From positions 1 through 21,894 of IMG/VR virus record IMGVR_UViG_2737471819_000029: 21,894 nucleotides of DNA, one strand, 5' to 3'. The notes under the pieces were generated by a model. The model was given only the letters and a program-made list of their open reading frames with translations, made no database searches and was not told the DNA's origin. Position 1 is the stretch's first letter; every line of letters starts with the position of its first letter. The translations under genes and the position numbers were made by a program. The DNA comes from a virus. Taxonomy: Duplodnaviria > Heunggongvirae > Uroviricota > Caudoviricetes. Below, one piece after another: positions 17,268 through 21,894 of the stretch.

Positions 17268-17762
17268 TTATCTAAAACAAGCAAACTCGCCATGATATTT
17301 TTCCCTGAATGCAATAGACATTAATTCTGCCAGCTCAATATCATCGGTATACCCAAGGAAAATAGACTTACCTTTTAGTTTGAACATAACTTTATATGTG
17401 TTTTTCCCTTTAAGAAGATGAACTCCTTTTATACCTGTATTGGATGATGAAACGCTGTTGGTTTTATTCTGACCTCTGGTTACTTCTCTTAGGTTTGAAA
17501 TTCTATTGTCATTTTTAACCCCGTTAATATGGTCAATTAACCCTTTAGGCCAGCATCCTTTCATATAAAACCAAGCAAGTCGGTGGCAAAGATACGATTT
17601 TCCATTAATCCGTATTGATAAGTAGTCGGCCTGTGAGTTCGTCTTAAATCCAGCAACCTTTCCGATACTGGAGCTACCAGAAGCTATCTTCCAAGTGAAG
17701 ACGCCTGTTTCTGGGTTGTAGTTGAGTGAAGAGGTTAATTCTTTATGAGTAATCATATTCAT
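17268..17762 (-). CDS. HNH endonuclease with C-terminal AP2-like DNA-binding domain (homing-endonuclease-like), 164 aa
   Basis: Motif LCHRLAWFYMKG...IDHINGVKNDNRISNLREVTRGQN (HNH_3-type H-N-N core) followed by GIKGVHLLKGKNTYKVMFKLKGKSIFLGYTDDIELAELMSIAFREKYHGEFA (AP2-like); AT-rich codon usage; start may be the second ATG at 17756. Confidence 0.8.
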   Translation of the reverse strand: MNMITHKELTSSLNYNPETGVFTWKIASGSSSIGKVAGFKTNSQADYLSIRINGKSYLCHRLAWFYMKGCWPKGLIDHINGVKNDNRISNLREVTRGQNKTNSVSSSNTGIKGVHLLKGKNTYKVMFKLKGKSIFLGYTDDIELAELMSIAFREKYHGEFACFR

Positions 17763-17782: not shown

Positions 17783-19450
17783 ATGTCAAATATTGTGCCA
17801 AATGTTATAATTTCAATGCCAAGTCAACTATTTACGTTAGCCAGAAAATTCCAGGCCGCAAGCAATGGCAAGATATTCATTGGTAAGATAGATTCCGATC
17901 CTACGCTCCCACAGAATCAAGTGCAGGTTTATGTGGAAAATGAAGACGGCTCTCACGTTCCTGTTTCGCAACCAATCATCATTAACGCTGCTGGTTACCC
18001 TGTATATAATGGACAGATTGCCAAATTCGTTACCGTGCAAGGCCATTCTATGGCTGTTTATGATGCGTACGGTGCGCAGCAGTTTTATTTTCCGAATGTA
18101 CTGAAGTACGACCCGGATCAGCTTGAGCAGCGTCTTGCATCATCAATAGGTTCTTCCATGGTTGGCATTACCGATGGAAGGACAGTGCATGATTTTATAT
18201 CTGTTGATGACTATCAGAGAATTGGTGATATCCGTGGTTACGGGGCGACAAATGAAAACGTAAACCCTGTCAACATTGCCGTTGCCACAGGTGAGGCCAA
18301 TGGTCTACTGAAGGTGCCTAATGGAGTATGGAGCGGTAATTTTGAGTTAAAAAATAAAACTAGCATAACTGGTGAATCCATAACATCAACAGTTGTTAAC
18401 GTTCCTATAAACACGATCGGAATAAAGCCTGAGGGCTCTGACGTTAGAGGGATTACTATATCAAACATGAATCTCCAAGTTAACGGATCTGTTGCTGGCG
18501 GTCCTCCTGTTGGTAGCGGGGTCGGAATAGACATGTCTTTTTGCGGAAAGGCAGTTAACTGTGAGTTTAACAACCTTTATCTCGATTTCTTTGATATTGG
18601 TTACAACGCTGGATATGCTGGTTTTTCAAATATTTATAACAATATGAGGTGCAATAACAACCGAATCGGGATTAACCTATCCAGTAACGGAACAATTATT
18701 CAAAACGTATTCAATGGGTGTTATGTTGCAAACTGGACGGCTTATGCCGTGAAAGTTTCTGGCGCTAGCAACCAGATATTCAACGCGCTTAACATGGGAC
18801 ATAACGGGTCCGCCAATGCTTATTTCCTGCAGATAGATACGAACTCAAGAGGAATCATATTTAATCAACCTAACTTCGAAATGGACGTTGCAAACGGGAA
18901 AATTACAGCAGGAAGCCAGGCTATCGTGGTCGCCTCTAGTTCTGAGGTTACATTTAACTCCCCGACATTCAACAGGGTTAACGCTGCAGGGGCAAATGCC
19001 TACCTGTTCCGGGTTAGGGGTAACGCTGTAGTACGTATAAACGACCCTCAAATCTACAACGACGATGGCACAATAGGTCACCTAATTATCAGTGATGAAG
19101 CTGTTGTTTATCTCAATGATCCAAATCGAATATTCACAGTAATTACTATCCAAGGTAATGGGAGGCTAATACGTGTTGACGAGAAGATATCAAACTCCCC
19201 TAACTATACAAACATTCTTACTTTAAAATCTGGAGACATAATTAACTTTGGATTCTATGCAAGATATGCAATGGCGGTTCCAGATTTTCACTCCAATACT
19301 ATGCCATCACCATTCAAGTACGCAGTGAGCTTTGACACTTACCATAGCAGTGGAACTGCCATTGCTCGAGTGTATGATACAACCACAGGAAATGGAGTAT
19401 CAAACATCAATGTTACATGTTTCGTACAGGCGTGGAGAGAGGATAGATAA
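17783..19450 (+). CDS. Tailspike protein (555 aa): P22-type head-binding N-terminal domain fused to a divergent beta-helix-like receptor-binding domain
   Basis: N-terminal ~115 aa (…[49 protein letters not shown]…[17 protein letters not shown]…NVLKYDPDQ) match the P22 gp9 head-binding domain from memory; the remainder is Asn/Gly/Ser/Val/Ile-rich with repetitive beta-strand-like segments and unlike the P22 enzymatic domain I recall. Confidence 0.85.
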
Positions 19451-19451
19451 A

Positions 19452-19476
19452 AATAGGGCGGTTTCCCCGCCCTATT
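19452..19476. terminator. Putative bidirectional intrinsic terminator between the convergent tailspike and acyltransferase genes
   Basis: ~10-bp stem AATAGGGCGG / CCGCCCTATT with a 5-nt loop, flanked by A-run upstream and T-run downstream; stop codons of both convergent genes abut it. Confidence 0.55.
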
Positions 19477-19477
19477 T

Positions 19478-20546
19478 TTATACTGTAACTAAATTGTCTT
19501 CATTTCTATTGGTTTTTCTTTTTAATTTAAGAAAATGTATTTCAAAAAGATAGTATGATGCAATTGATACTATATATGCGATAGCAAACCCACATGCTAT
19601 TATCACAGCATTATTGTTTACCCCAAACAAGGAGGACATTTTGTTTGCAATTGAAAAACACAGCAAATGCCACATATACAAACCATAACTTATCTTTCCT
19701 GTAAATGTTAATGGCTTTAATGATAATGCTTTTGTTATTATTTGTTTTTTCCCTAGCACACTCCACTTGTAAATGAAAAAAATTGCAGATGAAAAAATCA
19801 TCCCAAACGCTGTAAACATATACCAGCATTTCCCAGCCCAATCTACAGGGTTCCAAAAAGCATTAAGACCAACAGAATTTATTCCATTAAGAACCAGCCC
19901 AACACCTGCTATAAAAGTTAAAAATCCTGATTCATATGCGTACTTCTCATCTTTTATCTTGGAAAACAGAGCGCCAAGAACTAACATGTCAATGCAACTG
20001 ATAAGAGTTACATTTACAATGTATGGGTTTCCATCAGTGATTTGAAATATAAAATATCTTGATATACTTGATGTTATTATTAGTATAATAAAAATCAGAT
20101 TCATATTCTTTTTGTTTATGAAAAATATGAATAGAGGCCAAAGCCAGTAAAATTGTTCTTCCACTGCAAGAGACCAAGTGTGCCCCAAAATTCCAGGTGT
20201 TGTAACATTTATTCCTATATAATAGTTATTGTAGATAAGTTATAAACCACAAATAACCATCCGTTGGTTTCCCAGTTGCAATTAGAAGAATAAAGTTAAC
20301 AAGTAGGTAAGCATAAAATAACGGGAATATTCTAAGAGATCTATTTATAAGAAATCGTTTAATATAGTTACTAAAACCAGAGTCTTTATCCTCGATAAGG
20401 ATTGAGGTAATTAAGAAACCAGATAAGCAAAAGAACAGCGGAACTCCAGACCAACCAAGAGAAAATCCTGAAACTTTGGCATGAAAAAGCATTACAATGA
20501 GCACCGCAATACCTCTCACACCATCTAAAGATTGTATATGTTTCAT
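19478..20546 (-). pseudogene. O-antigen acyltransferase (Acyl_transf_3 / Oac-like) interrupted by a single-base frameshift; two ORFs of 106 aa (20226-20546) and 236 aa (19478-20188, really open up to 20239)
   Basis: N-terminal ORF begins MKHIQSLDGVRGIAVLIVMLFHA...GVPLFFCLSGFLITS (typical family-3 acyltransferase start); second ORF contains WSLAVEEQFYWLWP (family signature). On the minus strand the frames read ...WFITYLQ-TAA and TAA-LIYNNYYIGINVTTPGILGHTWSLAVEEQFY; removing one base near + coordinate 20228 joins them into one ~350-aa ORF. Confidence 0.65.
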
Positions 20547-20594
20547 GCTAAAAATCCATATTCTACGGGAAGCGGGAGTCTATCAGATTTAGTT

Positions 20595-20629
20595 GATATT
20601 ATCTATATAGACTAACTAGATGTTATCTA
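20595..20629. repeat. Direct repeat GAT(A/G)TTATCTA (x2, 24 bp apart) containing a 10-bp perfect palindrome TCTATATAGA, in the AT-rich region between the acyltransferase start and the integrase stop
   Basis: Read directly: GATATTATCTA at 20595-20605, GATGTTATCTA at 20619-20629; palindrome TCTATATAGA at 20602-20611. Confidence 0.5.
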
Positions 20630-20736
20630 GCGATTGACTGTCATTCTATGTATATTTTCACGCCTGTTATCATATAACTTGATCATTTGGTATTTTGAGA
20701 GATTAACTTCTTTTGTTTCCAGTGTGGCTATGCCAA

Positions 20737-21894
20737 TTACTCCACCTTTTCATCAATCCAGTCCGCCCACCACTGCATCATTTCTCTGCGCTTATCGAGA
20801 TACTGAGCATGGTTGTAAATTCCGCGCACAGATCCGCCGTTGGCATGTGCCAGTTGCACTTCAATAGCGTCAGCAGGCCATTCGTGCTCGTTCATAATCG
20901 TGCTGAATTCATGCCTGAATCCGTGACCGCTTTCCAGACCTTCATAGCCGATTTGTTTGATCACAAGCAATACCGCGTTCTCGCAGATTGGCTTCTTCTT
21001 ATCGTTGCGCCCGGCAAAAACAAACTCTGACACTGGTTTAGTGATTGAGCTTAGCGTAGTGAGAAGTTCAATCACCTGGTCTGACATAGGAACCACATGA
21101 ATTTTGCGTCCTTTCATCACACTGGCGTCGATGGTGATAATCCTGTTTTCAAAATCGACGTTCTTCCATTGCATGGAACGAAGCTCTTTCGTTCTTAGGG
21201 CTGTATAGCGTAAAACTTTGGTCGCAATGAGCGATACGATGCTTCCTGAAAATGTTGCCAGTGCTTTGTTGAATGCAGGGATCTGGTCTGCTGGAAGAAA
21301 CGGGAAGTTCTTCTTGCGGTATCCCTTCATGGCGTCAGCAAGGTCAGGTGCTGGGTTATATTTAGCCCTGCCGGTGACAATAGCGTAACGGAAAACCTCG
21401 CCGCATCTTCTGCGGGCTTTATTGGCTCGTTCCATTGCACCGCGATCTTCAAATCTGCGGATTACTTCCAGCAGTTGCATCGGCTCAATATCCTGAATTT
21501 CAAGGCCGCCGATGATAGGTAAAATGTCGTCATCAAACATTTTTGCAAGTTCAGTCACATACCCTACTGACCATACTTGCTTCTTGTGCTCGTACCATTC
21601 CTTGTAAATGGCGCTAAAGGAATTGTTGTTAGACGAAGCCTTTTTCGCTTTTACCGGATCGATGCCAACCGAGATGTCTTTCCTCGCGGTCCATGCTTTA
21701 TCCCTTGCCTCCTGCAAAGTCATAAGCGGATATTTTCCGACGGTCAGGATTTTCTCCTTACCGTCAATCTTGTAGCGAAGCTGCCATACCTTTTTCCCTG
21801 ATACAGGGACATAAAGGTACAGGCCATTACCATCGAGAAGGCGGTATGGTTTTTCTTTCGGCTTTGCTGCTTCAATCTGCTTAACGGTGAGCAT
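20737..21894 (-). CDS. int: Tyrosine site-specific integrase (385 aa); resembles the IntS-type integrase of E. coli prophages that target argW, as far as I recall
   Basis: Complete ORF MLTVKQIEAAKPKEKPYRLLDGNGLYLYVPVSGKKVWQLRYKIDGKEK... with C-terminal catalytic region containing R...HGFRHEF...Y (…LESGHGFRHEFSTIM…VRGIYNHAQYL…); start codon is at the last base of the window. Confidence 0.9.
   Translation of the reverse strand: MLTVKQIEAAKPKEKPYRLLDGNGLYLYVPVSGKKVWQLRYKIDGKEKILTVGKYPLMTLQEARDKAWTARKDISVGIDPVKAKKASSNNNSFSAIYKEWYEHKKQVWSVGYVTELAKMFDDDILPIIGGLEIQDIEPMQLLEVIRRFEDRGAMERANKARRRCGEVFRYAIVTGRAKYNPAPDLADAMKGYRKKNFPFLPADQIPAFNKALATFSGSIVSLIATKVLRYTALRTKELRSMQWKNVDFENRIITIDASVMKGRKIHVVPMSDQVIELLTTLSSITKPVSEFVFAGRNDKKKPICENAVLLVIKQIGYEGLESGHGFRHEFSTIMNEHEWPADAIEVQLAHANGGSVRGIYNHAQYLDKRREMMQWWADWIDEKVE

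What the first reader, a model, noticed from the sequence alone, without database searches (positions are those of the whole stretch)
19478..20546. Lysogenic-conversion O-antigen acyltransferase split by a single-base frameshift
Two adjacent minus-strand ORFs carry the N-terminal and the central/C-terminal signatures of one family-3 acyltransferase, as in the Sf6 oac gene which sits between tailspike and int. Hand translation shows that deleting one T near + 20228 fuses them. This is either a pseudogene (loss of serotype conversion), a sequencing error, or an on/off switch. It matters because the phage's own tailspike probably targets the O-antigen that this enzyme would modify.
Basis: seen in the sequence. 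Interest (0 to 1): 0.55.

Follow-up and report, generated by a model that had tools for sequence, protein, structure and literature searches.

The report
Frameshifted prophage O-antigen acetyltransferase gene
A P22/Sf6-like prophage of E. coli carries, between its tailspike and integrase genes, a membrane sugar-acetyltransferase gene broken by one extra base that near-identical prophages lack, so this is an ordinary, very recent loss-of-function allele and not a new mechanism.

Summary
Minus-strand ORFs 20546..20226 (106 aa) and 20239/20188..19478 match Pfam Acyl_transf_3 positions 2-98 and 117-325. Removing the T at 20228 (CTACAA[T]AACTAT) gives a 355-aa protein that exists, residue for residue, on 86 public E. 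coli contigs.

Prophages from other isolates differ from the window by only this base plus one intergenic SNP over 20.9 kb. All 119 more distant homologues are single polypeptides. The break falls at an invariant Asn (N107) in the re-entrant loop between transmembrane helices 3 and 4. The catalytic motifs end up in the first fragment and helices 4-10 in the second.

The site has no repeat tract, no Dam/OxyR-type signature and no slippery site. An on/off switch or programmed recoding is therefore not supported.

The split allele is recorded in two samples (NCBI and Logan sources), which favours a real mutation over an assembly error. Read data are still needed to settle this. Two other independent single-base frameshift alleles of the same gene exist in public assemblies.

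The gene occupies the Sf6 oac slot, and Int is 99% identical to Sf6 Int, but the protein is only a distant relative of Oac. It co-diverges with the tailspike receptor-binding domain as a 2.6-kb cassette. The target sugar is inferred, not shown. Interest is low.

The parts
19478..20546 (-). Whole AT3-only acyltransferase pseudogene: 1069 nt, against 1068 nt for the intact gene.
   Evidence: GC is 29-34% against 43-47% in the flanking phage genes.
20226..20546 (-). ORF1: residues 1-106 followed by a premature TAA. It holds helices 1-3 and the motifs R11-X10-H22, F38-F39-x-x-S42-G43 and R69-x-x-R72.
   Evidence: The motif definitions come from PMC7448272.
20228..20228 (-). The inserted base: T on the minus strand, A on the + strand. 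It interrupts the A4 run CAAAAC and turns codon N107 into a TAA stop in the ORF1 frame.
   Evidence: It is the only indel against six intact alleles. It is the unique single-base solution.
19478..20239 (-). ORF2 frame: residues 107-355 of the intact protein are readable in the +1 frame. The first canonical start is TTG at 20188, giving 236 aa. It covers helices 4-10 and the motifs H122-x-W-S-L-A-x-E-E-Q-F-Y and S286-Y-G-L-Y-x-x-H293.
19451..19477 (.). GC-rich hairpin flanked by A5 and T5. It is a shared bidirectional terminator between the convergent tailspike and acyltransferase genes.
   Evidence: Fold of 19445-19485: -23.5 kcal/mol, z = -6.4, and 0 of 200 shuffles reach it. Sf6 has an annotated terminator at the same place.
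20547..20736 (-). 190-bp region upstream of the acyltransferase gene. It carries weak sigma-70-like matches at 20670-20643 and 20626-20598 and a single GATC at 20681-20684.
   Evidence: The number of promoter matches is no higher than in shuffles, so the promoter is inferred only.
17783..19450 (+). Tailspike, 555 aa. The head-binding domain is shared with Sf6, HK620 and P22. The receptor-binding domain (about residues 117-555) is unrelated to them and co-diverges with the acyltransferase.
18122..20743 (.). The exchangeable cassette relative to Sf6: tailspike receptor-binding domain, terminator, acyltransferase and its upstream region.
   Evidence: DNA homology to Sf6 stops at 18121 and resumes at 20744.
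20737..21894 (-). Integrase, 385 aa, 99% identical to Sf6 Int. The prophage sits at argW.
   Evidence: tRNA-Arg(CCT) lies next to int in source contig L001.

Best explanation
The locus is a prophage accessory (lysogenic-conversion type) gene for an AT3-only membrane O-acyltransferase. In its intact 355-aa form it would carry an acetyl group from cytoplasmic acyl-CoA through a 10-helix pore onto a surface polysaccharide, most likely the O-antigen that the neighbouring tailspike binds.

In this strain (E. coli GCA_000798115.1, contig JUCN01000068.1) a single T was inserted after codon 106. Translation stops at TAA after Q106.

The 106-residue product keeps helices 1-3, with the R-X10-H, FFxxSG and RxxR motifs. 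It lacks the invariant N107, the rest of the re-entrant loop and helices 4-10. The remaining 249 codons have no good start.

The enzyme is therefore inactivated. This is a very young pseudogene, and the lysogen should lack the modification.

Shown: the gene family, the exact lesion, that the allele is derived and rare, and that no switch features are present. Inferred: the substrate, the loss of phenotype, and that the extra base is present in the DNA rather than only in the assembly.
For: 1. The two halves match complementary parts of PF01757, and the fusion matches the whole profile.
2. The exact fused 355-aa sequence (P0121) is on 86 contigs. The exact 106-aa sequence is on 2.
3. Of 24 contigs read that carry the identical tailspike, 22 (groups of 16, 5 and 1) have the intact gene. 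Only the source contig's group is split.
4. The window differs from L017 (another NCBI assembly) and L020 (a Logan assembly) by one intergenic SNP (2272) plus the 20228 insertion over 20.9 and 19.4 kb. It differs from L013 by the insertion alone over 7.6 kb.
5. All 119 homologues at 30-73% identity are single proteins (median 356 aa) with no gap at the junction. N107 is invariant, Q106 is 93% conserved and Y104 is 97% conserved.
6. [quoted passage not shown] In OafB models this is the re-entrant loop that gates the pore (PMC9833829).
7. The R-X10-H and RxxR residues are essential in OafA, OafB and Oac (PMC7448272). Here they are separated from helices 4-10.
8. The split product is recorded from both NCBI and Logan sources and in two samples.
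9. Two further independent one-base frameshift alleles of the same gene exist: P0127 (deletion at nt 399/400) and P0130 (+G at nt 247/248).
Against: - No read data were available, so a consensus error in the assembly cannot be formally excluded.
- I could not see whether the second sample carrying the split allele is an independent isolate or a re-assembly of the same reads.
- Apart from the frameshift the gene carries no other damage. This fits either a very recent mutation or an error.
- Substrate and phenotype are untested.
- The tailspike's best PHROG family is annotated for colanic-acid degradation. The target could therefore be a polysaccharide other than the O-antigen.
Confidence: 0.78

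Rival explanations
1. Sequencing or assembly error: the strain really has the intact 355-aa gene, and the extra base exists only in the deposited contig.
For: - The window differs from near-identical prophages by only this base and one SNP in 20.9 kb.
- The gene shows no other decay.
- The source is a draft assembly.
Against: - The insertion is a T inside an A4 run. It is not a homopolymer length change, so it is not the typical platform indel error.
- No other indel occurs in 20.9 kb compared with relatives.
- The exact 106-aa product is recorded from NCBI and from Logan read-based assemblies, on two contigs in two samples.
- Other genuine-looking frameshift alleles of the gene exist in other assemblies.
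Confidence: 0.15
2. Reversible on/off switch: phase variation of O-acetylation by slipped-strand mispairing or by an epigenetic Dam/OxyR switch.
For: Phase-variable acetyltransferases are known. Examples are H. influenzae oafA (tetranucleotide repeats), oafB/gtr (Dam-dependent) (PMC9558356) and neuO of the P22-like prophage CUS-3 (cited in that review).
Against: - There is no tandem or homopolymer repeat at the site. The only Tandem Repeats Finder hit is a weak 15-nt, 2-copy array at 19704-19732.
- The inserted base differs from its neighbours.
- There is only one GATC in the 190-bp upstream region.
- Twenty-two of 24 contigs read that carry the identical tailspike have the same intact sequence, with no length variation at the site.
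Confidence: 0.02
3. The split is functional: either programmed +1 ribosomal frameshifting restores the full protein, or the two fragments are made separately (termination at TAA 20228-20226, reinitiation at TTG 20188) and reassemble.
For: - ORF2 has a TTG 38 nt after the stop, with a weak GGA upstream.
- The break lies in a loop between helices.
- From general knowledge, some polytopic membrane proteins tolerate splitting.
Against: - The shift site is not conserved. All relatives are unsplit.
- CUA-CAA-UAA-C has no +1 re-pairing codon and no upstream Shine-Dalgarno-like stimulator.
- A product starting at the TTG begins at residue 120. Residues 107-119, including the invariant N107, would then be in neither fragment.
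Confidence: 0.03

Closest known systems
Shigella phage Sf6 Oac (gene 15, O-antigen acetylase)
   Same: - Same Pfam family (PF01757).
- Same AT3-only architecture of about 330-355 aa.
- Same slot and orientation: tailspike, terminator, then acyltransferase and int on the opposite strand.
- Int is 99% identical, and both phages integrate at argW.
   Different: - Sequence similarity is only 29% over the first 85 residues (E = 1e-4), so it is not an orthologue.
- The tailspike receptor-binding domain is unrelated.
- The gene here is frameshifted.
Salmonella OafA/OafB (AT3-SGNH O-antigen acetyltransferases)
   Same: They share the R-X10-H, FFxxSG and RxxR motifs, with R69/R72 numbered as in OafA. 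They also share a 10-helix AT3 fold with a re-entrant loop between helices 3 and 4.
   Different: - No 11th helix and no periplasmic SGNH domain.
- No Dam/OxyR phase-variation signature upstream.
Intact alleles of the same gene in E. coli and E. albertii prophages (P0121, P0125, P0126; loci L003-5, L013, L016, L017)
   Same: They are 99-100% identical in protein. The DNA is identical apart from the one base, and the tailspike, integrase and argW site are the same.
   Different: They lack the T at 20228 and encode one 355-aa protein.
H. influenzae Rd oafA, an AT3 gene found frameshifted in the first genome and intact in other strains
   Same: It is an AT3 surface-sugar acetyltransferase found as a frameshifted allele in one sequenced strain and intact elsewhere (PMC9558356).
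   Different: That gene is phase-variable through tetranucleotide repeats. This one has no repeats at the lesion.

Membership tests
Acyltransferase-3 (PF01757), AT3-only carbohydrate O-acyltransferases | Profile match above the curated threshold over the whole domain | tested here: met
   The fusion scores 90.2 bits against a 31-bit cutoff, over profile positions 2-325 of 326. The halves cover 2-98 and 117-325. PHROG O-acetyltransferase / O-antigen acetylase families match at E = 1e-39 and 1e-35.
Acyltransferase-3 (PF01757), AT3-only carbohydrate O-acyltransferases | R/K-X10-H motif in helix 1, FFxxSG in helix 2, RxxR at helix 3 | tested here: met
   R11...H22, F38-F39-C-L-S42-G43 and R69-S-L-R72 are present. 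H22, F38, S42, G43, R69 and R72 are invariant in 110 homologues. The motif definitions come from PMC7448272.
Acyltransferase-3 (PF01757), AT3-only carbohydrate O-acyltransferases | 10-helix fold with a re-entrant loop between helices 3 and 4 | tested here: met
   The AlphaFold2 model of the intact allele P0001 has pLDDT 95.7 and pTM 0.91. It shows long helices and two short helices at model residues 84-99 (fused residues 98-113). This is a prediction only. No solved AT3 structure was found.
Acyltransferase-3 (PF01757), AT3-only carbohydrate O-acyltransferases | One uninterrupted polypeptide | tested here: not met
   The reading frame is broken at codon 107 in this window. The locus is therefore a pseudogene member of the family.
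Acyltransferase-3 (PF01757), AT3-only carbohydrate O-acyltransferases | Acetyl transfer to O-antigen or another glycan | not testable with these tools
   This needs LPS chemistry or serology.
Sf6 Oac orthologous group | Full-length sequence similarity to Oac | tested here: not met
   29% identity over 85 aa only, E = 1e-4.
Sf6 Oac orthologous group | Position between tailspike and int, convergent with the tailspike | tested here: met
Repeat-mediated phase-variable (contingency) gene | Simple-sequence repeat or homopolymer at the frameshift site, with tract length varying among close relatives | tested here: not met
   There is no repeat at 20228. The insertion is a T within AAAA. Relatives are invariant at the site.
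Dam/OxyR epigenetic switch (gtr / oafB type) | Cluster of GATC sites in the upstream regulatory region | tested here: not met
   One GATC (20681-20684) lies in 20547-20736. The requirement for several GATC sites is from my own knowledge of Broadbent et al. 2010, which is cited in PMC9558356.
Programmed +1 ribosomal frameshift (prfB type) | Shift site conserved in homologues; slippery P-site codon plus an upstream stimulator | tested here: not met
   Homologues and near-identical alleles are in frame. CAA-UAA-C offers no +1 re-pairing.

The most novel reading that the evidence does not exclude
The split gene is not dead. Ribosomes terminating at TAA (20228-20226) reinitiate at TTG 20188, and the helix 1-3 and helix 4-10 fragments reassemble into an active split AT3 enzyme.

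A more modest variant is that the recurrent single-base frameshifts in this gene (three independent alleles) reflect positive selection for losing O-acetylation.
Probability: 0.04. Interest if true: 0.5.

Novelty: new member of a known kind. Interest (0 to 1): 0.15.

Why it matters
The value is mainly in annotation. The two ORFs should be annotated as one pseudogene, and the strain should be predicted to lack this surface modification.

A modest further value lies in the cassette itself. This acyltransferase and tailspike receptor-domain cassette is uncharacterised. It is absent from 50,697 phage records and from 5,426 complete E. coli genomes searched.

Public assemblies also contain naturally near-isogenic prophages that differ by one SNP and this one base. 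Those pairs would be convenient for testing what the enzyme acetylates and whether acetylation blocks the phage's own tailspike.

Tried and rejected
- DNA searches of the gene against the phage collection (blastn) and against complete E. coli genomes (megablast) found nothing. A wider query against complete E. coli genomes matched only the integrase, the tailspike head-binding domain and, in a few records, the adjacent HNH endonuclease gene.
- tblastn against phages gave only relatives at 29% identity or less.
- The tailspike receptor domain has no informative relative in phages or in the PDB, so the target glycan could not be named.
- No PDB sequence hit for the acyltransferase. No Foldseek PDB hit at E < 1e-3. 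There was one BFVD hit, a 637-aa unnamed protein with TMq 0.68.
- Exact look-ups of P0001 and P0002 found no contig.
- Literature searches for the assembly accession found nothing, so the sequencing platform and serotype of the strain remain unknown.
- The promoter scan was no better than shuffles, and the terminator scan missed the obvious hairpin. I folded the hairpin directly instead.
- The switch, recoding and split-enzyme readings were considered and rejected, as set out under the rival explanations.

Full report
**What is in the sequence.** On the minus strand, ORF1 runs 20546..20226 (106 aa). A second frame is open from 20239 to 19478, with its first canonical start at TTG 20188 (236 aa). 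ORF2 is in the +1 frame relative to ORF1.

Pfam Acyl_transf_3 (PF01757) matches ORF1 over profile positions 2-98 (E = 2.6e-9). It matches ORF2 over 117-325 (E = 6.7e-14). A conceptual fusion matches over 2-325 of 326 (E = 1.8e-25, 90 bits against a 31-bit cutoff).

Deleting the minus-strand T at 20228 (CTACAA[T]AACTAT) gives one 355-aa ORF reading ...WFITYLQNYYIGINV....

**Source and setting.** The window is part of E. coli draft assembly GCA_000798115.1, contig JUCN01000068.1 (identity checked). It is the late region of a P22-like (HK620/Sf6-like) prophage.

The prophage is integrated at argW. tRNA-Arg(CCT) lies between int and yfdC.

The gene order is tailspike (17783-19450, +), a strong hairpin terminator (19451-19477; -23.5 kcal/mol, z = -6.4), the acyltransferase (-) and int (20737-21894, -). 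This copies the Sf6 arrangement of gene 14, terminator, oac and int.

Int is 99% identical to Sf6 Int. DNA homology to Sf6 stops at 18121, the end of the tailspike head-binding domain, and resumes at 20744. The tailspike receptor-binding domain, the terminator, the acyltransferase and its upstream region therefore form a 2.6-kb replacement cassette. The acyltransferase part has low GC (29-34% against 43-47% in the flanking phage genes).

**The intact state is the norm, and the lesion is one base.**

- The conceptual 355-aa protein exists exactly in public data (P0121, 86 contigs). The exact 106-aa fragment is on 2 contigs.
- Alignment with three intact IMG/VR alleles shows a single indel, at 20228.
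- A look-up of the identical tailspike read 24 contigs. Groups of 16, 5 and 1 carry the intact gene; the 341-aa call in one group is only a different start choice, because the DNA is identical. Only the source contig's group is split.
- Over 7,612 bp, L013 differs from the window by that base alone.
- Over 20,882 bp, L017 (another NCBI assembly) differs by that base plus one intergenic SNP at 2272. L020 shows the same two differences over 19,395 bp.
- An exhaustive scan of single-base edits of the intact gene finds only one that reproduces ORF1: T inserted before gene nt 319.

**The split is not a conserved state.** The 119 homologues at 30-73% identity are single proteins of 268-426 aa (median 356) and are ungapped through the junction.

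The break falls in the motif Y104-x-Q106-N107. N107 is invariant in 110 aligned sequences.

**Consequence for the protein.** ORF1 retains R11-X10-H22, FFCLSG (38-43) and R69-x-x-R72. The equivalent residues are essential in OafA, OafB and Oac (PMC7448272; PMC9833829).

ORF2 holds H122-x-WSLAxEEQFY, G191 and S286-YGLY-x-x-H293.

An AlphaFold2 model of the intact allele (pLDDT 95.7, pTM 0.91) places residues 98-113 in two short helices between helices 3 and 4. In the published OafB model this is the re-entrant loop that gates the central pore.

Neither fragment can form the pore alone. A product starting at TTG would begin at residue 120, so residues 107-119, including N107, would be in neither fragment.

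**Switch or recoding?** There is no repeat at the site. The inserted T interrupts an A4 run rather than lengthening it.

Only one GATC lies upstream. The sequence CUA-CAA-UAA-C offers no +1 re-pairing and has no upstream stimulator. Near-identical relatives show no variation at the site. I reject phase variation and programmed frameshifting.

**Real mutation or error?** I could not see reads.

Three things favour a real mutation:

- The exact split product is recorded from both NCBI and Logan read-based assemblies, in two samples.
- The error type is atypical for sequencing platforms.
- No other indel occurs in 20.9 kb.

Two other independent one-base frameshift alleles also exist in the same 90% cluster. 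P0127 has a deletion at nt 399/400 (2 contigs), and P0130 has +G at nt 247/248. There are also C-terminal-only products of unknown lesion, P0124 (7 contigs) and P0131.

I put a real pseudogene at about 0.78 and an error at about 0.15.

**What the gene does when intact (inferred).** It is an AT3-only enzyme. PHROG families for O-acetyltransferase and O-antigen acetylase match at E = 1e-39 and 1e-35.

It is only distantly related to Sf6 Oac (29% identity over 85 aa). It has no close relative in 50,697 phage records or in 5,426 complete E. coli genomes.

It co-diverges with the tailspike receptor domain:

| Locus | Acyltransferase identity | Tailspike identity |
|---|---|---|
| L009 | 71% | 83%, full length |
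| L006 | 73% | 77%, receptor domain |
| L010-12 | 57% | receptor domain unrelated |

The linkage, together with the Sf6 and BTP1 precedents, supports the idea that the enzyme modifies the glycan that the tailspike recognises. The glycan itself could not be identified.

**Verdict.** This is an ordinary, very recent loss-of-function allele, or less likely a consensus error, of an uncharacterised member of a well-known class of prophage conversion genes. Only the on/off-switch alternative is rejected, and the term 'oac-like' applies to position and family, not to orthology.

Noticed in passing
window 1-21894: GATC is depleted: 53 sites against 86.3 +/- 8.0 in dinucleotide-preserving shuffles, and all 100 shuffles have at least 53.
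   Followed up: no
window 17268-17762 (-): An HNH endonuclease ORF (PHROG 99, E = 6e-61) with GC of about 37% sits immediately upstream of the tailspike. It is replaced by a 42%-identical version in L005 and is absent in L009, so it looks like an independently mobile insert.
   Followed up: partly
P0005 vs P0006 (loci L010-L012, 5001-6152): A 57%-identical acyltransferase occupies the same int-tailspike slot of other argW prophages. It occurs in two forms that differ by an in-frame 10-residue tandem duplication (QQQTATDSNR / QQQTATASN).
   Followed up: no
window 2272: This is the only other difference from the nearest relatives (L017, L020) in 20.9 kb. It is G here and A there, in the intergenic stretch between ORFs ending at 2136 and starting at about 2365.
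   Followed up: partly
same gene in other assemblies (P0127, P0130, P0124, P0131): There are at least two further independent single-base frameshift alleles: a deletion at gene nt 399/400 and +G at nt 247/248. C-terminal-only products also occur on 8 contigs. Roughly 5-12% of recorded contigs carry a disrupted copy.
   Followed up: partly
window 20224-20243 (-): The inserted T creates a second ATAACT hexamer (20229-20224), 14 nt downstream of an existing one (20243-20238). This could hint at a templated misalignment, but in DNA this AT-rich it is probably chance.
   Followed up: no
window 17783-19450 (+): The tailspike's best PHROG family (phrog_8280, E = 1.5e-95, residues 1-496) is annotated 'colanic acid degradation activity'. 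The receptor domain has no close relative in sequenced phages; the only match is an 81-residue stretch at 39% identity to Dickeya phage tailspikes.
   Followed up: partly
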